Shown here piece after piece: positions 7,522 to 28,800 of a stretch of DNA of 64,000 bases. Position 1 is the first letter of the stretch; each line of letters opens with the position of its first letter. A program made the position numbers and the translations under genes. The notes below the pieces were generated by a model that had not been told where the DNA came from, ran no database searches, and worked only from the letters and a program-made list of their open reading frames with translations. The stretch lies in the NCBI GenBank assembly GCA_965660445.1, contig CBFIAK010000001.1:192001-256000 (forward strand). The letters are read 5' to 3'. Origin of the DNA: Patescibacteria group bacterium. Lineage in GTDB: Bacteria > Patescibacteriota > Gracilibacteria > UBA4473.

Positions 7522-8738
7522 GATATTGATTTTTCAAATATTCCACGCAAGACAATGAGAGGAAGAAATAAAAACGGAAACAGGAGCGAGTTTACAAAAA
7601 ATCCATGAACAAATAAAGCAGCTATGCCAGCAGAAAACCCTAAAAATTGATCATTTTTTTGTTTTTTATACCATTGGAGCGGATGAAAAAACAAAGCTCC
7701 AAAAAACCATAAAAACGGAATTATTCCGAGTATTCCTGTTGCTATAAGCACAGTAAGGTGAGTAGAATCAGATCCTCCGGACGAAAAATATGATTCATCG
7801 ACAATACCTTTTCGTGCTGCTTTGTATCGGTATGTATTATATCCAATACCTCCAATGGGGTTTTCTTTCCAAAGAGTGAGGCTTTGCGTCCAGCTTTCTA
7901 ATCGAAGCCCTGCGGTTGGATCTATCTCGGTGGTGCCATCAAAAACAAGTGAATAAGCAGTGCCTATGAGTTGAGAAACTCTTTCGCTTGCTCGTTTGTT
8001 TGAAGCAATTCCAATGCTTGTTACAAGAAGTCCTATGAGGATTATCTTGGGGTTTCGAAACAAGAAAAATATACCAAGTCCTGTTGCTGCTGCAAGGTAT
8101 CCGCTACGAGAATAGGTAAGAAAAAGAGCGCCAATAAAGAGGGCTATGATACCGGTGTAATACCATCGTTTTTTTGGGGTTTTGTACCATCCGCCGATAA
8201 GAATGGGCGTCATAAATGCAACAAACCCTGCTATAAAGTTTGGGTCAAGCCATGTTCCTAAGAGTCGTCCGATATGGGGATCTAATCCGCCTTCTGTAGA
8301 CCATGTGGATATATCGGGTACAAGAAAAAATTGAATGTATCCCAAAAGGATAACACAAAGAGAAATATATTCGATGCGAGTGAGTGCTTTTGTTTGTTCT
8401 TGTGGAGATGAAAACATTTCATACGCCGCCCACCCAAAGACAAGAAACGATGCAAACCGAACACTATAAGCACCAGAAAGAATTATTTCTTTGAGAGATT
8501 CTAGCTCAATAGATCCATACGTAAGACTCACAATTGCAATAGCAAGAAAAGTAAGTCCAGAAGGAAGGAAAAGAGGAAATGAGAACTTTTTTTGTTGTAT
8601 TATTTTGTTTCCAATCCAAAAAAATGTAAATACTGGTACAAGTATATCAGTGGCAAGTATTCCAGATCCGCCTATTGGTATGCGAATAAGAAGTCCGGGA
8701 ATAAGGAGAAACAAACAACTCCAAAAAAGTATTTTCAT
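7518..8738 (-). CDS. O-antigen ligase/Wzy_C family membrane protein
   Basis: Polytopic; RLLGTWLDPN, LTYSRSG, R..W..., PIGGIG motifs. Confidence 0.8.
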   Translation of the reverse strand: MKILFWSCLFLLIPGLLIRIPIGGSGILATDILVPVFTFFWIGNKIIQQKKFSFPLFLPSGLTFLAIAIVSLTYGSIELESLKEIILSGAYSVRFASFLVFGWAAYEMFSSPQEQTKALTRIEYISLCVILLGYIQFFLVPDISTWSTEGGLDPHIGRLLGTWLDPNFIAGFVAFMTPILIGGWYKTPKKRWYYTGIIALFIGALFLTYSRSGYLAAATGLGIFFLFRNPKIILIGLLVTSIGIASNKRASERVSQLIGTAYSLVFDGTTEIDPTAGLRLESWTQSLTLWKENPIGGIGYNTYRYKAARKGIVDESYFSSGGSDSTHLTVLIATGILGIIPFLWFFGALFFHPLQWYKKQKNDQFLGFSAGIAALFVHGFFVNSLLFPFLFLPLIVLRGIFEKSIS

Positions 8739-12768: not shown

Positions 12769-13211
12769 GAAAAATATTTTTTGTTTTTATTTTTGGTGTT
12801 TTGTTGTGGGGGTGTGGATCCTCACAAGAAGAGGTTTTAGAAAACAAGAAATTAGATAATTTAGACACCGTTTCGGGGAGGTCTGGGTATCGGTATGCTT
12901 CAGATTTAGAGTGTAAAATTACAACGGCTACCGATCCATCAAAAGAGGGGGAGGTGTTCCATTTAAAAGGATTAGATTCTCCTATAAATACTATTTCGTT
13001 TGCACAAGACGATTTTCGTCCAATTGTGATGGAACGTGCAGGGATGGGTGTTCAGTTTCGTGGGTTTGTGATAATAAGTACATTGTATGGGCAGTCGTAT
13101 TTGTTGTTTGATGTTGAGACGGGAGTGTTTAGTTTATCGAGTCTTGATATTATTGAGACACTCGATAAAAATACGTATCGTGGGAACTGTGGTGCTTTAT
13201 TGGGTTCTTGA
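12765..13211 (+). CDS. Hypothetical lipoprotein
   Basis: Start overlaps the gap stop (ATGA); MRKIFFVFIFGVLLWG-C lipobox-like signal. Confidence 0.7.
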   Translation: MRKIFFVFIFGVLLWGCGSSQEEVLENKKLDNLDTVSGRSGYRYASDLECKITTATDPSKEGEVFHLKGLDSPINTISFAQDDFRPIVMERAGMGVQFRGFVIISTLYGQSYLLFDVETGVFSLSSLDIIETLDKNTYRGNCGALLGS

Positions 13212-13222
13212 CTTTTTTTCTA

Positions 13223-16200
13223 ATGGTTTTTGTATTTCGTTTTTTATTAAGTTTTGCTCTTGTGATAGCATTTCCATTGTTATCACTTGCACAGTTAACG
13301 ACTGTAAAAACGGTGTATGTAAAACCCATAAATATGACCACAACGGTTTCAGAGGGAGTGCTTCATGGGGTGGGAAATGTTGAATTAGATCCAGAGGTTA
13401 TTGGGCGTTTGTATTGGACTATTACTGATGAGTATGGAGGGATTGTATGGAACGAAAACGTGCCATGGAAATCGGGATATGTTTCGGTTTCTGATAATGG
13501 TTATCCGTTGATAAAGGTTCCGTTTTCGTACGATTTTTCAGTAAAGAAATCGTATGGAGTGTTTAGTGTTCGGTTTTTTATACAAAACAAAGATGGTGCG
13601 CTGGTGGCGCAAGGTCATAAAAAGATAGAAGTTCGAAAAGAAGGCGCACAAACTCGTATTTCAAATCTGCGAGTAGAGACGGTTGGTGATGAATTTGATG
13701 TGTTTGGATTGGTGTTTCAGGAAAACGCGTATGTGTCGGATAAGGTTCGGTTTGTGCCTCGGCTAAAGGTGTATGAATATGAAATAGATGGGGTTGAGGT
13801 ATTGTCGTTATCGGGTGATATGGTGGAGCTTTTGGGGCGTACGAAAGAACAGGTCTCGTTTACGTTTCCGGTTCCAAAAGTACCGAAAGTATATGTAGTA
13901 GAAGTTTTTGCAGAAGATGAGTGGGGTGATCGTTTAACACCGTCTTTGCGGGAAACCTTTGTGATTGAGGGGGCGTTTGCACATGCTGATTCGTTTTCTT
14001 CGAGTCATGCTCAGTTTGCTGAAACAGGTAATATGGTTGATTTTGAAATACGTGGGTTGGTGCGGCGTCCGCGTGATCCTTTGTTAGTGCAGGCGACGAT
14101 TCAGCAATTTTATGGAGACAAAAAAATAGAATCGGTGACGACTCAGCAGACGTTAGAGTTGGAAGAATCTCGTTTTCTAGCTCAATTTGAATACGAGGTG
14201 GTTGAGCAAGGGGCGACTCATTTTGCGGTATCGGTTCGATTGTTGCAGAATGGAGAAGTTTTGGAAGAATCATCGTTTATAACTGATAGATTTGAAGCTG
14301 CTGAAATAGAAGAAGTCGAAGGATGGTCTTGGGGGATTTTGTGGGTGTGTGTGTTTGGAATTTTTCTGTTTTTGGCGTGGTTTTTCTTTGTGAGGAAGGT
14401 GTCGGTAAAGTTGCCATTGGTTTTGCTTGGTGTTTTTATTCCGTTTTTTAGTGTTTTAGCAGAACCTTTACAAGGGAGTATGGATTCATCGGATTTGGTT
14501 TTTGAATGGTTGTATCCTCAGGTCGATACGCATTTCAGTACAAACCCAGAAAGAAGTTCGTTTCGGTATTTGTTTTTTCAGGGCAGATTCGTGAATTCAA
14601 TCACAAATAGTGGAGCGTTGCGGTCTGATACTCGAGTAAGCGTTCGGTTGCGGCATGAGTCTACGGATGTATTGTATGTAACGAAAGATATGAATGTGCA
14701 GTCATTGCATTTTGATATTGTAAAGAATGATGATGGAGATGTGATGGTTGTGGATGATGATTTTCGTCGGTTTTCATTTTTGATACCGACGGTTGATGGT
14801 GAGATTGATATTGTTGAGGATACAAATGGAAACGATGTATACGACATTGCTGATACTGTGGTTTCTTGGCAAGGCTTGCCTGATGGGTCATATGAGATGA
14901 GTTTGGTTTTGAGGAGTACTGCGAGTAATGCAGACCCTTTGCTTACTGATACTCAGCATGTTGTCCTTGATAGGGACAAACCATTGGTTCGGTTTTTGTT
15001 TGAACGAACACAAGACGTGTTTGATTTTGAAGAAAATCGATCGGAACCGCCTATATTTTTTGTAAATGATGATCGTGGGGTTCGGACGCGTGTTGAGTGT
15101 CAGGACGATTCGGGATGTTTTGATCCAGATGGAGATGTTGTGTTTGGTGGGACTGGTGCTTTGGCATCGCAGTGGTATCCAGAATATTTTGTGAAAGGAA
15201 ACTTTTGTGACAGTGGTGATGACTATTGTTATGCAAATGAGAAGATTCGTGGGTTTGAGGTATGTGATGTGGCGGGAAATTGTACGGATTACACGCAGGC
15301 AGAATCACAGATTATGATTCGGTTTTATGACCCACAGTCTCCGGAATGGCAAGAGGAACCGTTGGTGATAGAACAGGAAAGAGAATATAACAATCGAGAC
15401 TATAACCAGAGTCAGGGGGGGGCAAGTCGTGATTATTTGTATGGAGAAGGACGAGCGGGGGCAAGTGCTGCTGAGCAGTCTCGGTTATCATTTGGGGTAC
15501 AAGATGGAACAAGTTCGAGTATGGTGTTGGATCAAACACCATGTGAGCCAGCATCTCAGTCTTCTTTTCGGCCTTATCCGGGGTCTGATCCGCAGTATTG
15601 CGGAATGAGAATGTATCCGTGTCGGCAGTTTTCAGTTTTAGGGGAACGAGTTGTGCCGGTATCGATAAATGGTGATTGTAATTCTGGAAGTTTTGAGAAC
15701 CCTGATGAGTTTTCAGATGATGGGGAGTGTTGTCATTGGCGGTTCCCATATTGTTTACCAATTTATTTTGGCACACCTCCTGATCATTGTAGTGGAGGTG
15801 ATAATACGGATTCCAGTTGTGAATCACCTACACCGTCAGGGGTAGGGGTTTCGAGTACAGTTGTGGGGAGTCCGAGTGGAGAAGATGTTGCATGGCAAGC
15901 AGGAGACTCTGGGGGAGCATGTTTTGTGGAATGTAGTGCGGGGTATGTATGGCAAAATGGTCAATGTGAAATATCAAATAGTAATAGTTGTGAATCACCT
16001 ACACCGTCAGGGGCAGGGGTTTCGAGTACAGTTGTGGGGAGTCCGAGTGGAGAAGATGTTGTATGGCAAGCAGGAGACTCTGGGGGAGCATGTTTTGTGG
16101 AATGCAGTGCGGGGTATTATTGGAATGCGGTTAATAGTGCGTGTGAACAAGAGTTAACTTCGGGGTGTGAAGACCCAGATATTGCCTTGGGGGGATACTT

Positions 16201-18136
16201 TTGGGCTTCGTGTAATGCAGGTGCGACAGATGTATATGATGGACAAACGATTCGAACAAGTGCGGGAGATAGCACGGTGCATGCCTCTGATCGTTCATTT
16301 TTTGGAGGGTATTATCAATGGAGTAGAAACCAGAACGTTATGAATACAGGAACACTTTTTGCTGGTCCAGTAACTGAATCAGTGGCCAATAGTACAACAC
16401 AATTTATTCGTAATAGTAATGGTGCTGGAGATCGGTTTGATTGGGTTACTCCAGTTGGTTCGGTTCGTATTTGGCAACTTGCAGATACGAGGCAAGGGCC
16501 GTGTGCAGATGGGTATCAGGTACCAAGTTCTAGTGTGTGGCAATCAGCGATAAATGATGCGGGGTCTGTAAATACAGTTGGAACACGGTTAAAATTACCA
16601 AAGATGGGGTTATTCCGTTATAATTATGGACATGTGGGTAATACTGGAGCGTATTGGAGTTCTTCAAGTGGAGGGTATACAGGGCAGGCAAGAGCGTTTG
16701 TGTTTGGTTTTGATCCTCGTTCTAGTGGGTTGGGTGTAAACCCAAATTATCATCGGTGGGATGGTTTGCCGGTACGGTGTGTAAAAACACCCTTAGAGTG
16801 TAAGGGATCTGTTCCGAGTAATGCGAACTTGTGTAGTGGTGATAGTAATTTATTAACATCCGATACACCAGTCCGGTTGACCGATAGTTGTTCAGCGGCT
16901 CATAAATGTGAATACGTGTGCAAATCTGGGTATGTGTTAGAAAATGGGGCGTGTGTGCAAGATTTGAGTTGTGCTTCTCCGATGCCTTCGGGTATTGGTG
17001 TTTCTAGTACGGTTGTAGGAAACCCTTTGTCATCTGGGGTTGCATGGCAAAATTCAAATAACACTCAAGCTTGTTTTGTTGAGTGTAGTGCGGGGTATGT
17101 ATGGCAAAATGGTCAGTGTGAAGAGCTTCCAAAAGAGTGCAGTGGGACGATTTGGTCAAACTCAGTTGAATGTAATGGGTATGAGGTTGGGTTATCTCAG
17201 GATAGAACGACATCACTTTTAAACGCATGTACCTCCTCAACGAGTGATCATTGTCATCGAACATGTGCGGAAGGGTATAGAAAACGCATGAATTGGTGCG
17301 AGGCAATTCCAGGATATTTTAGTTGTGATGATACAACGAAGCCATCGGGTGGTGTTGTTTTAAATGAAAACAATCCTTCATCGGTAAATGTTGAATGGCA
17401 ACGATCGAACTCTTCGGGAGAATGTTATTTCCGTTGTGATACGAATCACACGTATAATGAATCGACTAATACATGTGAACCAGACGTTCAATATCGAAAT
17501 TGTCTGCGTCCATCTGGAATGGGGCAAACTGATTTCACAGTTAATTCGGTAACCACTGTTAATCTGAGAGCAAAATATCAATGGACATCAGGAGATAATC
17601 ACTTAGGGGGTGGTAATCCAGGATATATTGGACAATATCGCTCTGTGTGGAATGCTCAAACACGTACATGGAGCGGATCTCCTACTCCAACGTTTAGTCG
17701 AACTCCAAAAGTAACGGATCAAGACTGTACGTATTCTTGTGCAGGGTGGCGAACAGAGAATTCTTTAGGTATATACGGACCCGATTCTCATGCAAATCTT
17801 CGATATAATACTATTTCAAATGCAGGGTCTCGTTGGAATGGAGGGAACACATGTGTTGAAAACTTCTTTCAAGAGTCATGTAATACAGCAGAAACATTGG
17901 CAAGTTTACCAGATAATGCGGTTATGGTGAGTGGGGAAACAGTTGCGAAAACTTATGTATGGAATAATTCTGATAGTCTTGTGACAACGCTGCCTACTTC
18001 ATTTCCGGGTTTAACAGATGAGTATGTCTGGCCATCGCAATGGGTTCATAAATCACTTGATATCTATAGTGGTCGATGTTCGTTTGAGTGTGCATCAGGA
18101 TATACTTGGAATAGGAATACATACCGATGTGAGTAG
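13223..18136 (+). CDS. Large Cys-rich surface protein with internal TM segments, Cys repeats and a Fib_succ_major-like domain
   Basis: ~1637 aa; signal-like N-terminus, beta-rich region, TM hairpin, many C..GY.W..G.C repeats, FWASCNAGA/GGYYQW/GPCADGYQVPS/YWSSS/PVRCVK motifs. Confidence 0.75.
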   Translation: MVFVFRFLLSFALVIAFPLLSLAQLTTVKTVYVKPINMTTTVSEGVLHGVGNVELDPEVIGRLYWTITDEYGGIVWNENVPWKSGYVSVSDNGYPLIKVPFSYDFSVKKSYGVFSVRFFIQNKDGALVAQGHKKIEVRKEGAQTRISNLRVETVGDEFDVFGLVFQENAYVSDKVRFVPRLKVYEYEIDGVEVLSLSGDMVELLGRTKEQVSFTFPVPKVPKVYVVEVFAEDEWGDRLTPSLRETFVIEGAFAHADSFSSSHAQFAETGNMVDFEIRGLVRRPRDPLLVQATIQQFYGDKKIESVTTQQTLELEESRFLAQFEYEVVEQGATHFAVSVRLLQNGEVLEESSFITDRFEAAEIEEVEGWSWGILWVCVFGIFLFLAWFFFVRKVSVKLPLVLLGVFIPFFSVLAEPLQGSMDSSDLVFEWLYPQVDTHFSTNPERSSFRYLFFQGRFVNSITNSGALRSDTRVSVRLRHESTDVLYVTKDMNVQSLHFDIVKNDDGDVMVVDDDFRRFSFLIPTVDGEIDIVEDTNGNDVYDIADTVVSWQGLPDGSYEMSLVLRSTASNADPLLTDTQHVVLDRDKPLVRFLFERTQDVFDFEENRSEPPIFFVNDDRGVRTRVECQDDSGCFDPDGDVVFGGTGALASQWYPEYFVKGNFCDSGDDYCYANEKIRGFEVCDVAGNCTDYTQAESQIMIRFYDPQSPEWQEEPLVIEQEREYNNRDYNQSQGGASRDYLYGEGRAGASAAEQSRLSFGVQDGTSSSMVLDQTPCEPASQSSFRPYPGSDPQYCGMRMYPCRQFSVLGERVVPVSINGDCNSGSFENPDEFSDDGECCHWRFPYCLPIYFGTPPDHCSGGDNTDSSCESPTPSGVGVSSTVVGSPSGEDVAWQAGDSGGACFVECSAGYVWQNGQCEISNSNSCESPTPSGAGVSSTVVGSPSGEDVVWQAGDSGGACFVECSAGYYWNAVNSACEQELTSGCEDPDIALGGYFWASCNAGATDVYDGQTIRTSAGDSTVHASDRSFFGGYYQWSRNQNVMNTGTLFAGPVTESVANSTTQFIRNSNGAGDRFDWVTPVGSVRIWQLADTRQGPCADGYQVPSSSVWQSAINDAGSVNTVGTRLKLPKMGLFRYNYGHVGNTGAYWSSSSGGYTGQARAFVFGFDPRSSGLGVNPNYHRWDGLPVRCVKTPLECKGSVPSNANLCSGDSNLLTSDTPVRLTDSCSAAHKCEYVCKSGYVLENGACVQDLSCASPMPSGIGVSSTVVGNPLSSGVAWQNSNNTQACFVECSAGYVWQNGQCEELPKECSGTIWSNSVECNGYEVGLSQDRTTSLLNACTSSTSDHCHRTCAEGYRKRMNWCEAIPGYFSCDDTTKPSGGVVLNENNPSSVNVEWQRSNSSGECYFRCDTNHTYNESTNTCEPDVQYRNCLRPSGMGQTDFTVNSVTTVNLRAKYQWTSGDNHLGGGNPGYIGQYRSVWNAQTRTWSGSPTPTFSRTPKVTDQDCTYSCAGWRTENSLGIYGPDSHANLRYNTISNAGSRWNGGNTCVENFFQESCNTAETLASLPDNAVMVSGETVAKTYVWNNSDSLVTTLPTSFPGLTDEYVWPSQWVHKSLDIYSGRCSFECASGYTWNRNTYRCE
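15815..16116 (+). repeat. Intragenic tandem duplication, 171-bp (57 aa) period; diverged third copy at ~16967-17122
   Basis: AGTTGTGAATCACCTACACCGTCAGGGG starts at 15815 and 15986, near-identical for ~130 bp. Confidence 0.95.
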
Positions 18137-18784: not shown

Positions 18785-18817
18785 ATGAGTTTTTATAGAG
18801 TAAATGGCGGACGAAAT

Positions 18818-18831
18818 GGAGACCGGTCTCC
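18818..18831. repeat. Isolated REP-like palindrome GGAGACCGGTCTCC
   Basis: Perfect 14-bp palindrome identical to the core of copies at 20.5-21.4 and 57.0 kb. Confidence 0.85.
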
Positions 18832-18905
18832 TGTTTTGGGATAATAAAAAAACCATTTTCTCATTTATTTCAGAATATTGAAAGCGTGAGAAAATGGTTT
18901 CGGTG

Positions 18906-19906: not shown

Positions 19907-20503
19907 ATGGGATATAGATCTGTTCCTTTTCAAACAAATACGTACTACCATATTTATAATAGGGGGTGGAATAAGCAGCGTGTTTTTTTTGATAAAAATG
20001 ATTATAATCATTTTTTTGATCTTATTACGAAATATAGAAAAAAAGAACAATTTCAGAACATTGTTTTTATAGCATATTGTTTTTTACCAAACCATTTTCA
20101 TTTCATTCTTAAGGAAGAAGTAAAAACGAATGAATCTGTTGAGAACAAAGAAATTTTGCATTCAGGAGAAGAAACAAAAAATATATCTGAATTTATGCGA
20201 TATTTATTGGTTTCGTATGCAATGTATTTCAATAAACGGCATGGAGAAGAAGTAAAACCTGAAAAAAAAGCACCTGTATTTGAAGGAAGATTTCAGTCTC
20301 GTATTATTGGCCATGAAGATTATCTGAACTATGTGCATACCTATGTCGAGTATAACGCTATAAAGCACGGGCTAGTAGAACGACCAGAAGACTGGCCGTA
20401 TTCAAGTTTTCAGTTTCGGAAACACCAAACAGAAACAGATGAATTATTTCAGGATATCCTTGATAAAATGAACAGAGATGTTTTTGATCCAGGATTCATA
20501 TAG
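19907..20503 (+). mobile_element. REP-associated tyrosine transposase (RAYT, HUH/Y1 superfamily)
   Basis: 198 aa; YYHIYNRG, AYCFLPNHFHFIL (HUH), FEGRFQSRII, YVEYN..KHGLVERPEDWPYSS; palindromic repeats immediately downstream. Confidence 0.88.
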
Positions 20504-20544
20504 GTAACTTGACTTCTCTTTTTGAAGATGTGTTATTTTATTAC

Positions 20545-20835
20545 AATGGAGACCGGTCTCCATTATGTGTAGATATAGATTCAAAAAAATATTCTAAAAA
20601 AACAAAACCGCATATTTAAGTCAAAAGTTGGAGACCGGTCTCCAACTTATTGGGATTCAGGTTGAGAAATAAGGAACAATCATAAGGCTGTGCACAGTCT
20701 TGTGATTTTTGTGATTCCTGCGATTTATTCTAGATTCTAGATTCTGGGTTCAGGATTCCATGTAGCTCCTGCGCTTCCCCATAATTCATGATTCTTGCTT
20801 TATAATTCTGAAGTGAGAAAAACTTTCTCACTTTA
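20545..20835. repeat. Mosaic repeat locus R1
   Basis: Palindromes 20545-20564 (20 bp) and 20625-20648 (24 bp), 30-bp hairpin 20678-20707, AGATTC heptamers, AAGTGAGAAA/TTTCTCACTT hairpin. Confidence 0.9.
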
Positions 20836-20853
20836 CTGCACTTCCTCTGTCTT

Positions 20854-21080
20854 TCTGTTTGTCATTTTTTGACCACCAAAAAAGAACGAAAAAAGGTGGG
20901 CGACGGTTCTCTATACATGGGAATGAAATGATTCATCAGTGGGAAGCTCTGAACTCCAATTTTTTCATAAATTTAGAATCACAAAAGAAGAGAAAAATTG
21001 TCAGACAGCAGAGCTTCATTATTCCACTGCTTTCATCAATCATTCGCATGTCTTTCGAAAGTCGCGAAAAAAGGAACAGA
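20854..21080. ncRNA. Candidate structured rod-like ncRNA (strand unknown)
   Basis: Nested complementary segments listed in the findings; no convincing ORF. Confidence 0.45.
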
Positions 21081-21566
21081 TTAGAATACGGAATCTTGAA
21101 TCTAGAATCTTGTTTCCATCACAAAAATCACAAGGCTTTGCAAATCCTTGTGATTCCTGCGCTTCTTGCGATTTTACCAAGATTCAAGATTCCAGATTCT
21201 AGATTCTCATTTAGATTCTAGATTCTATTATTATACAATAACTCTAAAAAAACAAAAAATATTATAGCAAAGCCAAAAGTTGGAGACCGGTCTCCAACTT
21301 TTGGCTTAAATATGGGTTTTTGTGTGTCAAACTCTCAAGTTTCCATTATTTTTCAGTCTATACCTACGAAAAATGGAGACCGGTCTCCATTTTATAAGAA
21401 TTAAGATTGAGATTTAGATTGAGAAATAAGGAACAATTATAAGGCTGTGCACAGTCTTGTGATTCCTGTGCTTCCTGCGATTTATTCGAGATTCCAGATT
21501 CTAGATTCAGGATTCCATGTAGCTCTTGCTCTTCCCCATAATTCCTAATTCATGATTCATACTTCA
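21081..21566. repeat. Mosaic repeat locus R2 including the two-palindrome (REPIN-like) unit
   Basis: Hairpins 21126-21155 and 21435-21464; palindromes 21270-21307 (38 bp) and 21370-21393 (24 bp); GAATCT/AGATTC heptamer arrays. Confidence 0.92.
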
Positions 21567-21637
21567 CTATTACTATACAGTAACCCAAAAAAACACACAG
21601 TAAGACCAAGAATACGAGACCTGTCTCGGGGGGGGCT

Positions 21638-22669
21638 TTATCGTTTTATTTTTTCTTCGATATCACCAATACTCGCTTGTCCGCATTGGGCCCCAAATTT
21701 TTGAATCACAAACCCTGAGCTCCAAGCTCCCCATAACAGTTGTTCATCAACGGGTTTTTCTAAAAGAAGGGATGTGAGTATTCCAACCGAAAACGCGTCT
21801 CCTGCCCCAAGGGTGCTTTCTATCGGTACGTCAGGAGCGCATACGAAAAAATGGTTTCCATCATTATCAAAAAGTTGTGCTCCTCTATTGCTATCAGTAA
21901 TCACCACTTTTCCAACTCCCGCATCAAGGAATTTTTGAGCAATCGAACGCATATCAAAAACATGCTCAGGAATGAAAGGAGGATTTATAGATATGTTTTT
22001 TCCACATATCGATTCATCCAAGTCTTTAAACGAAACTTTTTCAGCTGTTTGTTGTGTAAAATATTCACTCTCTTCTTTATTGAGTATTAGCACATCAATT
22101 ACCGGAAATACTTTTTTAAAATGATCAAATCCGTATTGAAACTGAGTTTTTCCTGGGTTCCACCCAATAAGACTTTTCAGGTTGTTTGTCTTCCATTGCG
22201 GAAGCGCTAACAAAAAATCATCAGATTTATCTGTAAGATGTCCTATATAAAGAGATCTCGTCGATGGAGCATTGAACAGATGCGATGGATTAAAATCTTC
22301 TTTTGGGTTTTTGTAATTCAGAACGCTTCGGTGTCCGTCTTGAGCGTTTAAAATAACCGATAAACTCGATTCGCTTTTTTGAGAAATAGTAATGTGAGAG
22401 GTGTCAACCCCTTCTCTGCCGAGCATGTGTCGGATAGTATGCCCTACCGTGTCATCACCCAAAAACCCAAAAGTCGCCGTGCGCATACCAAACTTTAAAA
22501 ACCCAACACTTGCATTTGCCGATGACCCCCCACAAGATTGAGAAATTTTTTGTAACAATATTTTTTCTCCTACCGGAATGATAAAGTTTTCATTCGTTTC
22601 AAGCGGTGTTTGAGGTGTTACAAACACATCAAGTGTAATGGATCCGAAAGTGAGTACATCGTATGTCAT
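21638..22669 (-). CDS. PfkB-family carbohydrate kinase
   Basis: Start MTYDVLTFGSITLDVF; GGSSANAS, WNPG, LILNKEE, STLGAGDAFSVG anion-hole motif. Confidence 0.9.
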   Translation of the reverse strand: MTYDVLTFGSITLDVFVTPQTPLETNENFIIPVGEKILLQKISQSCGGSSANASVGFLKFGMRTATFGFLGDDTVGHTIRHMLGREGVDTSHITISQKSESSLSVILNAQDGHRSVLNYKNPKEDFNPSHLFNAPSTRSLYIGHLTDKSDDFLLALPQWKTNNLKSLIGWNPGKTQFQYGFDHFKKVFPVIDVLILNKEESEYFTQQTAEKVSFKDLDESICGKNISINPPFIPEHVFDMRSIAQKFLDAGVGKVVITDSNRGAQLFDNDGNHFFVCAPDVPIESTLGAGDAFSVGILTSLLLEKPVDEQLLWGAWSSGFVIQKFGAQCGQASIGDIEEKIKR

Positions 22670-22675
22670 CCTTGT

Positions 22676-22735
22676 ATTATAAAGAAAAATAAGCAAAAAG
22701 TCAATTTGACGGTGAGAAGATATTTCTTTTAAGAT
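22676..22735. promoter_or_regulatory. Back-to-back divergent sigma70 promoters
   Basis: Minus strand TTGACT-N17-TATAAT-N6-ATG (pfkB); plus strand TTGACG-N18-TAAGAT-N8-ATG (22744). Confidence 0.6.
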
Positions 22736-22743
22736 ACAAGAGA

Positions 22744-25350
22744 ATGAAAAAAATAATACTTCTCGCTTTTGTCTCTCTTGTGCCTTTCCTCGTGAACGCA
22801 TCAGAACTTGGAGGATTTACCACTCACACCATTAACCCAAGCGTCTTTGATGTTCTTCTTGGAAAAACTGATTTTGGTGGAGATTATGACACAGAAGTCA
22901 GCTCAACTGAGCGTATCACAGCTGAAGAATACGACGGAATCGTACTCAAACTCAAAGCAATCAATGATATTTTGTTTCCTGCTGATTGTGACGACGGTTC
23001 AGTGCTTGTGTGGGATGCAGATGTGTCTTCTTGGGAATGTGGAGCTTCGGAAAGCGGTGGCGGGAGCAGCAGTGACGCATGGATTGTTGATGAAGATAAT
23101 ATGTATGCGAATGTGTCCGGAAATGTTGGAGTGGGAGTTTCTGACCCACTCGCGAAACTTCATGTTGTTTCCGATACAGCAAATCCTATTCGTCTTGAGG
23201 CGGATATTACCAATACTACTGGCTCGACTCAAATTGATATTTTTAATGATGATGCCACTCGTTGGGCATTGGGAGTGAATAGTTCAGCGCATCCAACTCA
23301 TCCTGGTGATGGGTATCTGTGGGGGTACCAAGCAGAAGATTTTCGGTTTGGTGTGCAGGGAACAGAAATACTGAAACTCGGTGCTGATGGAACAATTTCA
23401 ATTCCTTCTTTAGGAGAATGCGGAACTCTTTATACTGATAGTGATGGGGTCCTTACCTGCGGTTCTGGCGGAAGTGGTACCGATGTGGTGTGTAGTGAAG
23501 AAGGTGAAGTTCTGAAATGGATGAATACCGCAGAAGAAGGTGATCCGCAAGTGTATGGATGGGTGTGTGCGGTTGATGAATCATCGTATGCATCTGAAGC
23601 TTTATCACTTGGGTTTTGTGTCGTTTCAGATGGAAATATGCCCAATACTCAATGGATTGCAGGGAGTGGGCCTGTGTTTCGGAAAACTGATGATGAGTCT
23701 GATCCCATGAAACCAGCTCGGTTTTTTCCAGATAAAAATCTTTATGATGGATCGGATTGTGCGTTATCGTGTGCCGATGGATACTCTTGGGATGTCGATA
23801 GAGGATCGTGTGTTCTCCCAAAAAGAATGTGCGGAGAAGGAGAATTCTTAGTTGGGTTTGATGGTATGGGAAATGTTGTGTGTGAATCAGTACGAGAGAT
23901 GACCAGTTATATGACATTTATCGATTCTTTGGGGGCGTGTTCTTCCGTGTCAGATATTCAAGTGATGTGTATGGGGCCTCCAAAAATGCCAATGCCTTAC
24001 CCAAACCCAACACCAGAGTATCCAGACCCCATGCGTGACCCAAGAAACTGTGGAAACCCTCTCGATATTGCGTTTTTTACTCAAGATGATCGAGATTCAA
24101 AAATGTATCGAGTGTTATCTGTAGGCAACGATTGCTGGATGGCTGAAAACCTCAATTTTGATCCGGGAGGGGGGAGTCGGTTGTGTGACCCCGATTCAGG
24201 CGCACCAAATGGGAATTGTACGCTTGGAGGGTTGTATAGTTTTGAAACTATTTTGGGGAATAATGTGAATACGGATGATTTTGATTTTACGTGTGGACAA
24301 AATGGGTGTTATAGAGGAAGCGGAAACCCCAAGTCAGCAGTTGCACCAGTGCGAGGTATTTGTATGCAAGGATGGCATATTCCTACAAAATCTGAGTTTC
24401 AAGGGCTGTCTGGGTATTTACAAACAGAATCGGCAACGGTGGAACGGTTTGGTGTGAATGAAGACGGTGGATATGCTTATTATGATACTATAAATAATCC
24501 TGCGGGGTGGCAGTTTTGGGATTTTTCTGATAAATACTGGGCTGCCTATAGAAACGAATGGACTGATACCAATAATGATAGACTTATTGAGCTTCAGTAT
24601 TTAGAAACAGAAGATGATAATTTTTCATTAGAATCTCTTATGACATCGTTTAGTCAGTTGGGATCGAATGATCCAGATAACTATGCTTATGCACTTCGGT
24701 GTGTCAAAGATCGATCAAATACACAGTATGAATGTAGTGGTACTTTGCCACAAGGGGCTGAGTATTGGGATTGGAGCGACGGACAAACCCCCACGACTCC
24801 AAATGAATCAAAACGGCATATTTTTAATTACGCTGCTAATTATACGCAAGACGCAAACCGGTTTGATTTGCGATGTGATTGGAAATGTAAACACGGAGAA
24901 TATGGGTATTATTACGACTCAAATGTGGGGCAGTGTGTGAGTAATACACCGTTTTGTAATCGACCTGATGATACTGTTTTCTTGGATCCCCAAGGAGAAT
25001 GGAACGATAATGGTGAGTGGCGACGTATGCAACCTGGGATTAATTATACGAATGTACAAACACGGAGTTTATCAGGAACAGGGCAACCATTGAGTTGTCA
25101 GACTCGTTGTTTTGATGGGTATGATCTCACGCAAAACGGGTGCGTGGAACGTCAACCTATGCAAAACCGGTTTGGTTGTGGTTGGTTACCTCCAAACGCT
25201 AACTGGGTTCGTGATGGGCGATATACCACTCCAAATGAGCGACGATGGAAACCGTTTTATGACCCTGATAATGACGACGATGATGCCTGTGCTTATTACT
25301 GTACTGGAAGCACTGAGTTTACTGGGAATAACACATTGGGGTGTCGGTAA
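22744..25350 (+). CDS. Secreted Cys-rich protein with Fib_succ_major (FISUMP)-like domain
   Basis: Signal peptide; GNVGVG..P.AKLHV beta-repeat, CWMAENLNF, GGLYSF, RGICMQGWHIPTKSEF, AYALRCVKD; Cys-rich repeats. Confidence 0.75.
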   Translation: MKKIILLAFVSLVPFLVNASELGGFTTHTINPSVFDVLLGKTDFGGDYDTEVSSTERITAEEYDGIVLKLKAINDILFPADCDDGSVLVWDADVSSWECGASESGGGSSSDAWIVDEDNMYANVSGNVGVGVSDPLAKLHVVSDTANPIRLEADITNTTGSTQIDIFNDDATRWALGVNSSAHPTHPGDGYLWGYQAEDFRFGVQGTEILKLGADGTISIPSLGECGTLYTDSDGVLTCGSGGSGTDVVCSEEGEVLKWMNTAEEGDPQVYGWVCAVDESSYASEALSLGFCVVSDGNMPNTQWIAGSGPVFRKTDDESDPMKPARFFPDKNLYDGSDCALSCADGYSWDVDRGSCVLPKRMCGEGEFLVGFDGMGNVVCESVREMTSYMTFIDSLGACSSVSDIQVMCMGPPKMPMPYPNPTPEYPDPMRDPRNCGNPLDIAFFTQDDRDSKMYRVLSVGNDCWMAENLNFDPGGGSRLCDPDSGAPNGNCTLGGLYSFETILGNNVNTDDFDFTCGQNGCYRGSGNPKSAVAPVRGICMQGWHIPTKSEFQGLSGYLQTESATVERFGVNEDGGYAYYDTINNPAGWQFWDFSDKYWAAYRNEWTDTNNDRLIELQYLETEDDNFSLESLMTSFSQLGSNDPDNYAYALRCVKDRSNTQYECSGTLPQGAEYWDWSDGQTPTTPNESKRHIFNYAANYTQDANRFDLRCDWKCKHGEYGYYYDSNVGQCVSNTPFCNRPDDTVFLDPQGEWNDNGEWRRMQPGINYTNVQTRSLSGTGQPLSCQTRCFDGYDLTQNGCVERQPMQNRFGCGWLPPNANWVRDGRYTTPNERRWKPFYDPDNDDDDACAYYCTGSTEFTGNNTLGCR

Positions 25351-25824: not shown

Positions 25825-28800
25825 ATGGGATTCTTTACGAATATTAAACAAGGAATTGCATCAGTAGCATTAGGAGCTATGGCATTTGCGGTTTTACCGT
25901 TGAACGCACAAGCACAACTTATGTTCTCTGATGTAATGGAAATTCCTTCTTGGTCTGTGGAAGCTATTGAAGAGCTTATGGATCAAGGAGTGATTAGTGG
26001 GAACGACGATGGATCTTTTGCACCAAATCGACAATTAAATCGAGCAGAAGTTTCAAAAATTATCGTTCTTGCGACTGGTCTTCCAATTGACACATCAGGA
26101 GGTTCTGCCTTTCCAGATGTAACAGAAGGAGATTGGTTTTATGACTACGTTGTAACAATGTATAACTACGGGTACATCAATGGATACCCTGATGGACTTT
26201 TCCGACCAGGTGTTGGGATCAACCGAGCTGAAATGGCTAAAATGGTTGTGAACGCATTTGAATTGGATCAAGACCTTTCAGGAGCTCCTCATTTTGGAGA
26301 CGTATCATCAAGTGATTGGTTTTACGGATTCGTTGAAACAGCATACAACGCAGGTCTTATGCGAGGATACGGTGATGGTTCATTCGGACCAGCAAACGCT
26401 GTAACTCGTGCTGAAACTGTAAAAATTGTATACGATGCTCAGTTAGCAGTTATGGCTCCAGTTGGACCAGCTGACGGAACATTGGAAGTGGCTTTGTCTA
26501 TGGACACACCACGAGGAACAAACATTCCTTACAACGCAACTTCAGTGCCATTCTTGACTGTTGAAATGACTGCATCTGATGATAGTGATGTAGAAGTTTC
26601 TTCTATGACTTTCACTCGACTTGGTTTGGGTGACAACGACGATTTCAAAAAGGTATGGCTTGAAATTGACGGGTTCAAAATCGGAAACGATAAATCAGTA
26701 AACAATGCTGACATCGCAGAACTTCGGTTTAATCCTCCAATCGTTATTCCAGCTGGAATGACATTGATGGCTGACTTGGTAGCATCTACTAAGTTCACTG
26801 GTGATGATCAAAATGTTGGTCATTACAACCGATTTGCTGTTGTATCAGCACAAGACATTGTATCTTCTGCATTAAATGTTGTAGGAGACTTCCCAATTGA
26901 AGGGGAAGAAATGCAAGTAACATCATACGAAGTTTCACAACTTCGATTCAGCGCTTTGGGATCAGACACGACTATTGAAGTTGGAAACAGCTTTGTAGAA
27001 GTTGGTAAATTCCGAATCTTAAACGGTTCGAATACAAACAAAGACGTTGAGCTTCGAGCTATTACCTTCAAAAACGATGGTACAGCTGAAGTAGCTGATG
27101 CATTTGAAAACTTGTCATTGTATGTTTCAGGAGAACAAATTTCAGCTGAAACAATCATTGACGGAGACTACGTTACATTCCGACTCGATAACGGTATCAC
27201 TGGTGGATACGTTGTAGAAGACGGAGACAGCCGAATTTTCTCTATTCGAGCTGATGTAGTTTCTGCTGAACGAAACGACACAATCAACTTCAAAGTTGAT
27301 AACTATGAAGACATTGTAGGTGTTGAAATCGGAACAGCATTTGGTGTTCGAGCAGTAGCTGGAGACGCAGGACGATCTTTAAGCACTTCAAATAACGCTC
27401 AAACAACAGCAACATCTCCGGCTTGTGTGGCAGGAACAAACGTTGCTGAAGACAACTGTGCACGTTTATACATGTACAGCGTTGATTCAGGAGACTTGAA
27501 CGTTTCTCGAGACCCAGCGTCTTTAGGAAACCAAGAATACGCTCCAGGATCAAACGATGTTGTGTTTATGACGGCACGATTGGTAGTTGACCAACCGCTT
27601 TTGGCTGATGGAGTAAACCTTTACATCGCTTCAGGATCTACGGTTGACGGAGACGACAAATTGACTGAATTCAACAACCGATTCGATAACTTCCGATTGT
27701 ACTTAAACGATCGAATGATCGATAGTGAAAACGATTTCGTAGGTGATACTGATTGTACAGTTACGGCAACGTCATGTTACCTTGAATTCGATACAACATT
27801 CGAAATCGCAGGAACATCTATCTTGAAATTGGTTGGGAATATTACACAAAACGCTGAAGACGACGATCAAATCAAATTGAGCGTTTCAGCAACAAACTTC
27901 TCTTCAGTAGAATACATTTCTACAGGAGACCAAGTGTCTACATCTCAATTATTGGGATCAGCAACGTCTTCATTTGTTCAAGTACAACAATCAAGCTTGG
28001 TTATTTCTCGAACAGATGGTCTTCCATCTGGGCAAGAGCTTGTAGCAGGGGTTGATGACATGACATTCTTAGGGTTCGTTTTGGATAACAACGATTCAGG
28101 AGATGTAAATGTAACATCAATCACTATTGCAGCTGATACAGATGCCAATACCACTAATGCTGGTGACGGAGTTTCTGGTTCGGCTCGAACATACTCTAAC
28201 TTTACAGGAGCAATCTTTGTAGACGGAGTACAACAAGGTTCTGCGAAAAACTTTACCTCTACTGGTTCAGCTACTTTCAACGACCTTTCAACTGTGATTC
28301 CTTCGGCTTCACAAAAAGAATTCACTCTTGTAATTGATACAATTGAGGCTTCTGCAACTGATATTGCAACAACTATTAGCGATGCTGGTGGTGCTGTAGC
28401 AGAATCAGGAGTAGCTACATGGACTGTAACAAGTACAACTGGTATGACTGTTGGTGACCTTTTGGTTGTAACTGATGGTACAAATACTGATGTACGAGCT
28501 ATTACAGCAATTGTAGATGCTGATAGTGTGACTGTGGATTCTGCAGCTGGTAATAACTATGCAGCAGGAGATACAGTAACTATTCGACACCAAATCAAAT
28601 TCGACGTTAGTGACGTTGATGCTGATAACGTTGAAAACGGACAATCAGTTGAAATTACACCAACTTCTATTGATGGGAATCTTTTCGTTCTTGTTGATTC
28701 AGGAAGCTTAACTGTAAGTATGGGTTCAACTGTGTTCTCAGATATTATCGTTGCTGGTCAAAAAGAAGTTGAAATTGGACGAATCCGATTCAACGCTTCA

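What the first reader, a model, noticed from the sequence alone, without database searches (positions are those of the whole stretch)
20854..21080. ~230-nt rod-like structured RNA candidate embedded in the RAYT repeat cluster
Seen, nested pairings from outside in: TCTGTT 20854-59/AACAGA 21075-80; T6 20865-70/A6 21067-72; side hairpin CCACC 20873-77/GGTGG 20895-99; GCGAC 20900-04/GTCGC 21061-65; ACATG 20915-19/CATGT 21047-51; GAATGA 20921-26/TCATTC 21040-45; TGAT/ATCA; CAGTGG 20937-42/CCACTG 21024-29; GAAGCTCTG 20943-51/CAGAGCTTC 21009-17; CAATTTTT 20957-64/AAAAATTG 20993-21000. It is single-copy in this window and lies between direct-repeat modules. Inference: helices interrupted by internal loops suggest a functional RNA rather than a decayed inverted repeat. 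Options are a divergent 6S-like RNA, or an RNA/ssDNA cargo or partner of the HUH enzyme.
Basis: partly seen in the sequence, partly recalled or inferred. Interest (0 to 1): 0.7.

Follow-up and report, generated by a model that had tools for sequence, protein, structure and literature searches.

The report
Widespread folded repeat element, replication-oriented
The 227-base hairpin is one copy of a previously uncatalogued family of small non-coding repeat elements, found in tiny-genome bacteria, many Bacteroidota and environmental DNA, whose folded shape is preserved by evolution and which in the small genomes always points the same way relative to DNA replication.

Summary
The element is single-copy only within the window. 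The ~1 Mb genome has 3 full copies and 1 copy cut by a contig end.

A covariance model found the same architecture in:
- 19 of 43 genomes of the same family, with up to 14 copies;
- 5 of 150 other genomes of the phylum;
- 21 of 101 Flavobacterium genomes, with up to 37 copies;
- other Bacteroidota;
- 61 places in 80 metagenome loci.

No Rfam family matches. The rod is kept by compensatory change: 85-86% of cells are paired, against 51-52% in shuffles, in two alignments.

Conserved parts are a 5' T-run/A-run/A-run module whose three run lengths co-vary, two internal-loop blocks, and an apical AACTC...TCA(G/A)ACA loop. No gene is linked to the element. G.U is not favoured over A.C.

In three small genomes, 27 of 27 copies lie with the same strand on the G-rich (leading-sequence) strand, whatever the direction of neighbouring genes.

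Best reading (about 0.45): a non-autonomous mobile element that acts as folded single-stranded DNA. A structured RNA remains possible (about 0.28). The 6S reading is not supported. A link to the neighbouring RAYT/HUH gene is not supported by co-occurrence.

The parts
20850..21087 (+). Whole repeat unit (copy A). The + strand is the 'model sense' used throughout.
   Evidence: Limits come from the alignment of the 3 full copies and the cut copy. Covariance models R1 and R2 match 20850-21090 and 20859-21079.
20864..20871 (+). 5' strand of helix S1: (A/C)TTTTTTG, T-run at 20865-20870.
   Evidence: Pairs with 20877-20884. The T-run and A-run lengths co-vary across the family (Spearman 0.82, n=57). 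The extension below the run also covaries (GTTC/GAAC, CCTC/GAGG, CCCC/GGGG, GCTC/GAGC).
20873..20877 (+). CCACC, 5' strand of helix S2; it lies in the loop of S1.
   Evidence: Pairs with GGTGG at 20895-20899. Relatives have GTCGCC/GGCGAC, GCCGCC/GGCGGC, CAG/CTG or TTGATC/ATCAAG. Helix 1 has changes on both sides in 6 of 6 and 5 of 6 pairs.
20878..20884 (+). A-run 1 plus G (AAAAAAG), 3' strand of S1.
   Evidence: Invariant block AAAAAAGAA in 15 of 15 aligned sequences.
20889..20894 (+). A-run 2, a possible third strand of an intramolecular triplex or the A-rich loop of a pseudoknot.
   Evidence: Its length tracks A-run 1 (Spearman 0.58, n=57; triplets (6,6,6) x20, (5,5,5) x6, (7,7,7) x4, (4,4,4) or (4,4,5) x5). 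Interrupted runs keep C/G/G at matching places in three copies (L170; L297 and L300). The triplex itself is inferred, not shown.
20895..20899 (+). GGTGG, 3' strand of S2.
20900..20904 (+). GCGAC, base of the long rod; pairs with GTCGC at 21061-21065.
   Evidence: The equivalent helix in the family has 89-94% of cells paired, with CG, GC, UA and AU all seen.
20927..20942 (+). 5'-arm region that corresponds to the conserved internal-loop block (family consensus near TCAYTCGCTAAA).
   Evidence: Block visible in alignments A4, A5 and A6. This copy is a diverged version.
20952..20956 (+). AACTC, 5' half of the conserved apical loop.
   Evidence: Invariant in 15 of 15 sequences from at least two phyla.
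20957..21000 (+). Variable apical hairpin (CAATTTTT/AAAAATTG with a 26-nt loop).
   Evidence: Relatives carry other hairpins here: GTCCCGCC/GGCGGGAC, a 2-bp GC/GC hairpin, or a ~100-nt insert.
21001..21007 (+). TCAGACA, 3' half of the conserved apical loop (family consensus TCA(G/A)ACA).
   Evidence: TCA.ACA is invariant in 15 of 15.
21014..21041 (+). 3'-arm region that corresponds to the second conserved internal-loop block (family consensus near TTTACGCTCATTTCGTG).
21061..21080 (+). GTCGC plus the purine-rich tail GAAAAAAGGAACAGA, which can pair with 20854-20870.
   Evidence: The tail is not conserved in the Flavobacterium sufflavum copies, which end sharply after ...CTAAGGAC. This outer pairing is therefore not a family feature.
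19907..20503 (+). RAYT-like Y1 (HUH) transposase ORF, 198 aa, about 350 nt upstream. It is context, not a shown partner.
   Evidence: Pfam Y1_Tnp 29.2 bits against a cut-off of 23, E 1.1e-6. Homologues found in 21 of 43 family genomes.
20535..20808 (.). Left block of dispersed REP-like modules: GGAGACCGGTCTCC hairpins at 20544-20566 and 20626-20648, and a second module at 20675-20758.
   Evidence: These modules recur at dozens of places on contigs C1, C2 and C4.
21084..21565 (.). Right block of the same REP-like modules, partly inverted relative to the left block.
   Evidence: Inverted pairs I1-I4 and direct repeats D1-D6.

Best explanation
The rod is a copy of a stand-alone, non-coding, non-autonomous repeat element of a widespread family that is not in Rfam.

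Architecture on the model-sense strand (shown):
1. A 5' module: T-run, short loop, A-run, 5-nt linker, second A-run. The loop pairs with the bases that follow the second A-run.
2. A rod of about 130-190 nt whose helices vary freely in sequence but stay paired.
3. Two sequence-conserved internal-loop blocks.
4. A conserved apical loop, AACTC-[variable hairpin]-TCA(G/A)ACA.

Behaviour (shown): copies are gained and lost between related genomes, can multiply to dozens, and carry no gene of their own.

Mechanism (inferred): the element works as folded single-stranded DNA exposed at the replication fork. It is recognised through its conserved loops and the 5' module, and copied or moved in trans by an enzyme that I could not identify. 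In the small genomes this would place the model-sense strand on the lagging-strand template. Also inferred, not shown: the 5' module forms an intramolecular triplex or pseudoknot.
For: Family and structure:
- R1 and R2 hits run the full model length. R2 finds 19 of 43 family genomes with 1-14 copies, 5 of 150 other genomes of the phylum, 21 of 101 Flavobacterium genomes with 37 copies in F. sufflavum, other Bacteroidota, and 61 hits in 80 metagenome loci.
- Covariation in alignment A6 (40 sequences): 84.7% of cells paired against 52.4% in shuffles and at most 48% in slid controls; 43 of 43 pairs changed on both sides; score 0.717 against 0.191.
- An independent metagenome alignment, A7 (47 sequences): 86.0% against 51.3%; score 0.751 against 0.187.

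Mobility:
- At one orthologous intergenic site the element is present in G046 and G047, present with its apex deleted in G016, and absent in G048.
- Copies within a genome are near-identical: 98% here, and similar in F. sufflavum.
- In one Flavobacterium genome it occurs in tandem arrays.
- Its distribution is patchy.

No gene of its own:
- 267 ORFs within 3 kb of 57 metagenome copies give no cluster spanning more than 2 loci.
- 244 ORFs near 26 F. sufflavum copies give none either.

DNA rather than RNA:
- G.U+U.G against A.C+C.A is 58 against 64 and 57 against 61.
- No consensus promoter or terminator lies at the element.
- Many copies abut stop codons within 0-9 nt.

Replication polarity:
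- The sign of the local 20-kb GC skew equals the element's strand in 24 of 24 copies of two closed genomes and 3 of 3 here.
- Flanking genes point every way: opp/opp 8, same/same 7, convergent 7, divergent 2.
- Established knowledge: IS200/IS605 elements use single-stranded intermediates and target the lagging-strand template (abstract of PMC6006769). Several IS families show replication-linked orientation bias (abstract of PMC3971601).
Against: - No transposase or other partner was found. The obvious candidate, a Y1/HUH enzyme, is undetected in the genome with the most copies and does not co-occur with the element.
- I saw no target-site duplication, terminal inverted repeat or fixed target motif. 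The mode of movement is therefore unknown.
- The polarity is weaker in Flavobacterium. In F. sufflavum 17 of 26 copies agree with local skew. A closed Flavobacterium genome has opposite copies 6-10 kb apart.
- Copies within one genome can be about 60-70% alike and still fold. One site is occupied in three species of a genus. This looks more like long-term selection on each copy than like a pure parasite.
- The strand that folds is unsettled. The antisense strand folds more stably in 34 of 40 elements. On the antisense strand the three runs read U-U-A, the order of the better-known pyrimidine-motif triplex.
- The counts come from alignments fitted to the model, and related copies are not independent.
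Confidence: 0.45

Rival explanations
1. It is a gene family for a structured small RNA, read from either strand, spread by duplication and horizontal transfer. The 5' module would be an RNA pseudoknot or triple helix. The conserved purine-rich (antisense) or pyrimidine-rich (sense) loops would be protein-binding sites.
For: - Strong covariation and conserved loops are what functional RNAs show.
- Helices S1 and S2 together form the topology of an H-type pseudoknot with an A-rich third segment whose length tracks S1.
- On the antisense strand the runs read U-run, U-run, A-run, the order that U.A-U triple helices need (inference). The antisense strand folds better in 34 of 40 elements.
- If the sense strand is transcribed, the strict co-orientation with replication is what highly expressed RNA genes show.
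- One Flavobacterium subfamily keeps about 45 nt upstream of the element. By eye, against a Bacteroidota promoter consensus recalled from memory and not scanned by any tool, this stretch holds a weak promoter-like box.
Against: - G.U is no commoner than A.C on either strand (58 against 64; 57 against 61). This is unusual for RNA helices.
- There is no shared promoter or terminator across subfamilies.
- Copies start 0-9 nt from neighbouring genes.
- No Rfam family matches.
- Copy number swings from 1 to 37 between species of one genus.
- If the antisense strand is the RNA, all 27 copies would be transcribed head-on to replication.
Confidence: 0.28
2. It is a replication-linked single-stranded DNA signal kept by the host, for example a priming or protein-loading site on the lagging-strand template. 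It would resemble the single-strand origins of rolling-circle plasmids, and would not be a selfish mobile element.
For: - 27 of 27 copies have the same strand on the lagging-strand template.
- Structure is kept in diverged copies and at an orthologous site.
- A rod with conserved internal and apical loops recalls ssoA-type origins. This is recalled knowledge, not tested here.
Against: - Only 19 of 43 genomes of the family carry it, and 5 of 150 elsewhere in the phylum.
- Copies are very unevenly placed; 13 of 14 lie in one replichore of G016.
- Flavobacterium shows bursts and tandem arrays.
- The polarity is weak there.
Confidence: 0.1
3. It is a REPIN-like substrate of the neighbouring RAYT (HUH Y1) enzyme, which would cut and rejoin its hairpin as single-stranded DNA.
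For: - A RAYT-like ORF lies 350 nt upstream in the same orientation.
- In G016 a homologue lies about 1.2 kb from a copy.
- The element sits in REP-like clusters here and in a Flavobacterium genome.
- The replication polarity fits HUH chemistry.
Against: - F. sufflavum has 37 copies and no Y1_Tnp hit at E<=0.01.
- The closed genome G048 has 10 copies and no homologue of this RAYT at E<=1e-5.
- Homologues occur in 11 of 19 genomes with the element and 10 of 24 without. Pfam Y1_Tnp occurs in 15 of 19 against 16 of 24.
- The RAYT is flanked by its own short GGAGACCGGTCTCC hairpins, which are far more numerous.
Confidence: 0.1
4. It is a divergent 6S-like RNA.
For: It is a rod of about 200 nt with internal loops. 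No 6S gene was detected elsewhere in the genome with RF00013.
Against: - No 6S model hit on the element even at E<=10.
- 3-4 near-identical copies here, and up to 37 elsewhere.
- Absent from most relatives.
- Flavobacterium loci that carry the element gave no Rfam hit of any family at E<=0.01.
Confidence: 0.02

Closest known systems
REP / REPIN elements and other small structured bacterial repeats (ERIC, BOX, Correia)
   Same: Short, non-coding, intergenic and multi-copy. It folds as a hairpin, clusters with other repeats, and its copy number differs sharply between relatives.
   Different: It is much longer (160-240 nt) and has an asymmetric architecture: a 5' three-run module, conserved non-complementary internal loops and a conserved apical loop. 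It occurs in at least two phyla. It is not tied to a RAYT. It has strict replication polarity in the small genomes.
Non-autonomous derivatives of IS200/IS605 elements (PATE-type), moved as single-stranded DNA by a Y1 HUH transposase
   Same: No terminal inverted repeats or target duplication were seen. Function depends on a folded single strand. Orientation is tied to the replication fork (abstract of PMC6006769).
   Different: There is no pair of similar subterminal hairpins at the two ends, and no fixed target tetranucleotide. No Y1 transposase was detected in the genome with the most copies. No autonomous parent was found.
TMECO / BoxC intrastrand triplex motif of enterobacteria (Holder et al. 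2015, PMC4666352, sections 15 and 16 read)
   Same: One strand carries a pyrimidine run, a loop, a purine run, a short loop and a second purine run. It is a dispersed repeat whose copy number varies between strains.
   Different: The runs here are A/T, not G/C, and 4-8 nt long, not 9. They are only the 5' module of a larger rod-shaped element. Triplex formation is inferred from length co-variation, not measured.
Integron attC sites and ssoA-type single-strand origins (recalled, not tested)
   Same: Imperfect hairpins that act as folded single-stranded DNA. Structure is conserved more than sequence, a few loop or bulge bases are conserved, and function is strand-specific.
   Different: This element is dispersed singly in chromosomes, not in cassette arrays or on rolling-circle plasmids. 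BLAST of the F. sufflavum-type copy found nothing in 72,556 plasmids or 50,697 phage records.
6S RNA
   Same: A rod of about 200 nt with internal loops.
   Different: No model match, multi-copy, and patchy distribution.

Membership tests
6S RNA (Rfam RF00013 and relatives) | Match to the 6S covariance model | tested here: not met
   No 6S hit in the window at gathering score. None in 20500-21640 at E<=10. None in the whole genome at E<=1.
6S RNA (Rfam RF00013 and relatives) | One (rarely two) housekeeping gene per genome, broadly kept among relatives | tested here: not met
   3 full copies plus 1 cut copy here; 1-14 in relatives. Absent from 24 of 43 family genomes at E<=0.001.
6S RNA (Rfam RF00013 and relatives) | Binds RNA polymerase holoenzyme through a central bubble | not testable with these tools
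   Needs biochemistry.
Any described RNA family (Rfam 15) | Covariance-model match | tested here: not met
   Only weak chance-level rows, all far below gathering scores. No hit at E<=0.01 in six loci from other taxa that carry the element.
REP / REPIN with RAYT | Co-occurrence with a RAYT (Y1 HUH) gene in the same genome | tested here: not met
   Homologue of the window's RAYT in 11 of 19 genomes with the element against 10 of 24 without. No Y1_Tnp in F. sufflavum, which has 37 copies.
REP / REPIN with RAYT | Unit made of short (20-40 nt) palindromes, singly or as an inverted pair | tested here: not met
   The unit is 160-240 nt and asymmetric, with non-complementary conserved loops. The short GGAGACCGGTCTCC hairpins beside it are a separate and much more numerous repeat.
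IS200/IS605-derived non-autonomous element | Orientation tied to the replication fork (active strand on the lagging-strand template) | tested here: met
   24 of 24 copies in G016 and G048, and 3 of 3 here. Only 17 of 26 in F. sufflavum.
IS200/IS605-derived non-autonomous element | Similar subterminal hairpins at both ends and insertion 3' of a fixed 4-5 nt target | tested here: not met
   One hairpin module at the 5' end only. Flanks are A/T-rich but share no fixed motif. Exact junctions could not be set from the one empty site.
IS200/IS605-derived non-autonomous element | A Y1 transposase, or an autonomous parent with the same ends, in the genome | tested here: not met
   None in F. sufflavum. 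No recurrent neighbouring gene.
Classical MITE (DDE-transposase dependent) | Terminal inverted repeats and a target-site duplication | tested here: inconclusive
   In this genome the ends TCTGTT and AACAGA are inverted. The F. sufflavum copies have unrelated ends and no duplication that I could see in 5 copies. Exact ends are not defined in most genomes.
Intrastrand triplex motif (TMECO-like) | Pyrimidine run, purine run and purine run of equal length on one strand, with short loops | tested here: met
   Run-length triplets (6,6,6) x20, (5,5,5) x6, (7,7,7) x4, (4,4,4) x1 and near-equal others, in 57 of 65 copies that the pattern could parse.
Intrastrand triplex motif (TMECO-like) | Physical triplex formation | not testable with these tools
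   Needs CD, NMR or melting on DNA and RNA oligonucleotides of both strands.

The most novel reading that the evidence does not exclude
This is a new class of replication-polar, single-strand-acting genetic element. It would combine an intramolecular triple helix or pseudoknot with a long rod bearing conserved loops, and would spread across phyla (tiny-genome Patescibacteria-like bacteria and Bacteroidota) without any known transposase. That would mean either an undiscovered host-encoded or fork-coupled copying mechanism, or a domesticated signal used in lagging-strand replication.
Probability: 0.25. Interest if true: 0.85.

Novelty: new variant of a known kind. Interest (0 to 1): 0.72.

Why it matters
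- **New family.** Small structured repeats are usually lineage-specific and poorly understood. This one is defined by a clear and testable architecture, is absent from Rfam, and is common in environmental DNA (61 model hits in 80 metagenome loci). It is shared by very different bacteria, including genomes of about 1 Mb that carry almost no other mobile DNA.
- **Open mechanism.** Strong structural selection, strict replication-strand polarity in the small genomes and the lack of any linked gene make it a good handle on how non-autonomous elements are copied at the fork. They also allow a test of whether some bacterial 'repeats' are functional single-stranded DNA or RNA.
- **Experimental access.** Cultivable carriers exist, for example Flavobacterium sufflavum with 37 copies, so the open questions (RNA or DNA, which strand, which partner) can be tested directly.
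- **Annotation.** A covariance model of this family would remove many spurious small ORFs; 14 of 40 elements are stop-free in one frame.

Tried and rejected
- **Rfam.** The whole window at gathering scores gave only three tRNAs. The intergenic region at E<=10 gave only chance-level rows. Six loci from other taxa at E<=0.01 gave nothing.
- **Plain BLAST of the element in 41 relatives** gave only short A/T-rich matches. These nevertheless pointed to the shared 5' module.
- **First genome-contig scan.** Of the 80 loci kept, 10 gave full-length-looking R1 hits that I folded. R2 gave 21 hits in 75 of these loci. The Arcobacteraceae hit of R1 was not confirmed by R2 on that genome.
- **Expression.** No RNA holder was listed. 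The only holder is a DNA run from a marine plankton metagenome.
- **Promoter and terminator scan.** Nothing lies at the element.
- **Protein-coding reading.** The stop-free frame in copy A has no Pfam hit. 14 of 40 elements are open over at least 90% of their length, but in differing frames, and 26 of 40 are not. Rejected.
- **Partners in the own genome.** No reverse transcriptase. No convincing TnpB-type domain; one 17-bit sub-threshold hit inside a 1061-aa frame. No IS110 transposase. Retron, DGR, omega-RNA and bridge-RNA readings are therefore dropped.
- **SRP reading.** The element lacks the SRP motifs by eye, and it is multi-copy.
- **Hammerhead reading.** The reverse strand of copy A holds CUGAUGA, but this is not conserved in relatives and there is no Rfam hit.
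- **Phage or plasmid carriage.** Four pattern hits in viral contigs, of which one is a weak R2 hit. No BLAST match in plasmids or phages.
- **Neighbour-gene clustering.** Nothing recurrent.
- **Structural aligners.** mafft-qinsi and mafft-xinsi are not installed. I used covariance-model alignments instead.
- **Helix S1.** Column counts are weak because of the homopolymer runs; slid controls pair as well. Its support rests on run lengths and on the covarying extension.
- **Literature.** Five searches found no description of this element. Papers used: PMC4666352 (outline, sections 15 and 16), PMC11602168 (three passages), PMC3971601 and PMC6006769 (abstracts). Supplementary MITE catalogues of PMC11602168 could not be seen and might list it.
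Full report
**1. The observation**

All ten listed helices are in the minimum-free-energy structure. The fold is far better than dinucleotide shuffles on both strands:
- RNA parameters: z -4.61 (+) and -4.35 (-).
- DNA parameters: z -5.37 (+) and -4.24 (-).

The element lies in an intergenic gap of about 1.1 kb, between a RAYT-like ORF (19907-20503, Pfam Y1_Tnp 29.2 bits) and a PfkB-family kinase gene on the other strand (21638-22801). It is flanked by REP-like modules, partly in inverted order, so that the wider region 20535-21401 is itself roughly palindromic. Those flanking modules recur at dozens of places in the genome.

**2. It is not single-copy**

The window lies in a 991-kb assembly of 5 contigs, scored 100% complete. 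The element occurs three times in full and once cut by a contig end. Two copies are identical. Copy A, in the window, differs from them at 5 positions, all in the 5' arm; three of these break pairs that the other copies keep. The shared unit is about 20850-21087.

**3. It belongs to a large family**

No Rfam family matches. BLAST in relatives found only a short A/T-rich match. That match turned out to be a shared 5' module.

A covariance model built from the three copies (R1) then found full-length hits of about 160-210 nt, several per genome, in 9 other genomes of the same family. All showed the same layout. A second model built from five diverged members (R2) gave the following.

| Set searched | Result |
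|---|---|
| Genomes of the same family | 19 of 43 (including this one), 1-14 copies |
| Other genomes sampled across the phylum | 5 of 150 |
| Flavobacterium genomes | 21 of 101 |
| F. sufflavum | 37 copies |
| A 0.6-Mb MAG labelled Patescibacteria | 3 copies |
| Other Bacteroidota (Myroides, Winogradskyella, Segetibacter, Sphingobacteriaceae, an Ignavibacteria MAG) | hits present |
| Metagenome loci | 61 hits at E<=1e-4 in 80 loci |

All 150 sampled genomes of the window's phylum are 0.7-1.2 Mb. This fits Patescibacteria.

Viral contigs, plasmids and phage records hardly carry the element.

**4. Anatomy (model sense = window + strand)**

- **Helix S1.** A T-run of 4-8 bases plus a few flanking bases pairs with an A-run after a short loop.
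- **Helix S2.** The loop of S1 pairs with the bases that follow a second A-run. In this copy that is CCACC at 20873-77 with GGTGG at 20895-99.
- **A-run 2.** It is joined to S1 by a linker of about 5 nt (GAACG here).
- **Internal loops.** Two sequence-conserved, non-complementary blocks, near TCAYTCGCTAAA on the 5' arm and TTTACGCTCATTTCGTG on the 3' arm.
- **Apical loop.** AACTC-[variable hairpin]-TCA(G/A)ACA, at 20952-56 and 21001-07 here.

In 15 sequences from at least two phyla the invariant columns are the T-run, AAAAAAGAA..AAAAAA, AACTC and TCA.ACA.

**5. The structure is under selection**

| Measure | A6 (40 sequences) | A7 (47 metagenome sequences, none used to build the model) |
|---|---|---|
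| Cells forming standard pairs | 84.7% | 86.0% |
| Same, in shuffles | 52.4% | 51.3% |
| Same, in slid structures | at most 48% | at most 52.9% |
| Pairs changed on both sides | 43 of 43 | 42 of 43 |
| Covariation score | 0.717 | 0.751 |
| Score in shuffles | 0.191 | 0.187 |
| Score in slid structures | at most 0.139 | at most 0.163 |

Two caveats apply. Both alignments are fitted to the model, and copies are related.

S1 is obscured by its homopolymer runs in column counts. It is supported in two other ways. Its run lengths track one another (T-run against A-run 1, Spearman 0.82, n=57). Its extension covaries: GTTC/GAAC, CCTC/GAGG, CCCC/GGGG and GCTC/GAGC.

**6. The three-run module**

The length of A-run 2 follows that of S1 (Spearman 0.58). 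The length triplets are (6,6,6) x20, (5,5,5) x6, (7,7,7) x4, and (4,4,4) or (4,4,5) x5. Where the runs are interrupted, a C in the T-run, a G in A-run 1 and a G in A-run 2 sit at matching places (L170; L297 and L300).

This is the pyrimidine-purine-purine order of the TMECO/BoxC intrastrand triplex motif of enterobacteria (PMC4666352, sections 15 and 16). Together with S2 it has the topology of an H-type pseudoknot with an A-rich third segment. On the opposite strand the same bases read U/T-run, U/T-run, A-run, which is the order a pyrimidine-motif (T.A-T or U.A-U) triplex needs.

I infer a triple-stranded or pseudoknotted 5' domain. It is not shown, and some subfamilies lack S2.

**7. It comes and goes, and has no gene**

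In one genus, the gap upstream of recX holds the element in two species, a shortened copy in a third, and no element in a fourth. The shortened copy lacks the apex and still folds as a hairpin.

Copies are near-identical within this genome and within F. sufflavum. They are diverged within others. One Flavobacterium genome has tandem arrays with a period of about 300 nt.

No protein recurs next to the element:
- 21 loci of the family showed none.
- 244 ORFs near 26 F. sufflavum copies showed none.
- 267 ORFs near 57 metagenome copies gave a largest cluster of 2 loci.

The element is not coding.

**8. Replication polarity**

In two closed genomes of the family, GC skew shows two clean domains. 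The sign of the local 20-kb skew equals the element's strand in 24 of 24 copies. In this genome the same holds for 3 of 3 copies. The model-sense strand is thus always the G-rich strand, which is the template of the lagging strand.

Flanking genes point every way: 8 opposite/opposite, 7 same/same, 7 convergent and 2 divergent.

In F. sufflavum only 17 of 26 copies agree with local skew. Skew there follows gene direction, so the test is poor. A closed Flavobacterium genome has oppositely oriented copies a few kb apart. The strict polarity is therefore shown for the small genomes only.

**9. RNA or DNA, and which strand**

| Evidence | Result | Points towards |
|---|---|---|
| G.U+U.G against A.C+C.A | 58 against 64; 57 against 61 | Against RNA on either strand |
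| Shared promoter or terminator | None found | Against an independent RNA gene |
| Public RNA runs | No RNA run listed; not testable | Neither |
| Pyrimidine-pyrimidine against purine-purine mismatches, sense strand | 133 against 54; 163 against 47 | One strand matters; can be argued either way |
| Which strand folds more stably | Antisense in 34 of 40 | Antisense |
| Which strand is exposed at the fork | Sense | Sense |

I leave the strand open.

**10. The HUH/RAYT idea**

The RAYT-like gene is next to copy A, and a homologue is about 1.2 kb from a copy in G016. Against this:
- Homologues are in 11 of 19 genomes with the element and 10 of 24 without.
- Pfam Y1_Tnp is in 15 of 19 against 16 of 24.
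- Closed genome G048, with 10 copies, lacks a homologue at E<=1e-5.
- F. sufflavum, with 37 copies, has no Y1_Tnp hit.

The own genome also has no reverse transcriptase, no convincing TnpB-type domain and no IS110 transposase.

**11. Verdict**

It is a member of an uncatalogued, cross-phylum family of structured, stand-alone repeat elements.

| Reading | Odds |
|---|---|
| Non-autonomous mobile element acting as folded single-stranded DNA at the fork, partner unknown | about 0.45 |
| Structured RNA | about 0.28 |
| Host replication signal | about 0.1 |
| RAYT substrate | about 0.1 |
| 6S-like RNA | about 0.02 |

My five literature searches found no description of the element. Supplementary MITE catalogues could not be read.

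Noticed in passing
window 20535-21401: The whole intergenic region is a nested, roughly palindromic stack of repeat modules around the element. Inverted pairs: I1 20602-20648/21277-21323, I2 20535-20587/21349-21401, I3 and I4. Copy B elsewhere in the genome shares the inner 530 nt of this arrangement at 82% identity.
   Followed up: partly
window 18814-18836, 20544-20566, 20626-20648, 21278-21300, 21371-21393: Short GGAGACCGGTCTCC hairpins flank the RAYT-like ORF, like a REPtron. With a second module (about 84 nt, at 20675-20758, 21123-21206 and 21432-21515) they recur at dozens of places in this 1-Mb genome.
   Followed up: partly
whole genome G000: Neither the small nor the large bacterial SRP RNA model (RF00169, RF01854), nor 6S (RF00013), gives any hit at E<=1 in an assembly scored 100% complete. 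The SRP RNA may be very divergent or unassembled.
   Followed up: no
loci L044, L063, L064, L066, L079, L082, L092, L093, L108 (Acetobacteraceae and Rhodospirillales MAGs): The loose 5' pattern (T-run, gap, A-run, GAA, A-run) hit many GC-rich alphaproteobacterial MAGs, always at 30 nt length. None gave an R2 hit. This may be a different repeat with the same three-run motif.
   Followed up: no
G256:C8:2593-3488 (L307) and L308:3712-4715, 7155-8001: In one Flavobacterium genome the element sits in tandem arrays (period 299-413 nt, 96-97% identity) together with GTCATTGCGAG...CGCAATGAC-type palindromes. It is again embedded in another repeat family.
   Followed up: partly
L035:1501-1799; L073:3903-4108; G016:C1:172374-172490: Size variants that keep the fold: a copy with a ~100-nt insert in the apical loop, a copy with a ~45-nt insert in the 5' arm, and a copy with the apex deleted.
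   Followed up: partly
G016 (closed genome, 1.33 Mb): 13 of 14 copies lie in one replichore (33-604 kb) and only one in the other (883 kb). In the sister genome G048 the split is 5 and 5.
   Followed up: no
window 13208-18136 and 25825-30102: Two very long ORFs (1642 and 1425 aa) lie near the element. The first has no Pfam hit at E<=0.01. The second was not searched.
   Followed up: no
window 20859-21221 and homologous places: One frame runs stop-free through the element and on into the flanking repeats (120 codons here). 14 of 40 family members are stop-free over at least 90% of their length, so gene callers are likely to predict spurious small proteins.
   Followed up: yes
G016 and G048 element junctions: In 8 of 24 copies the 3' end of the model hit lies 0-9 nt from the end of a convergent gene. 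This hints at insertion right behind stop codons or into terminator regions.
   Followed up: no
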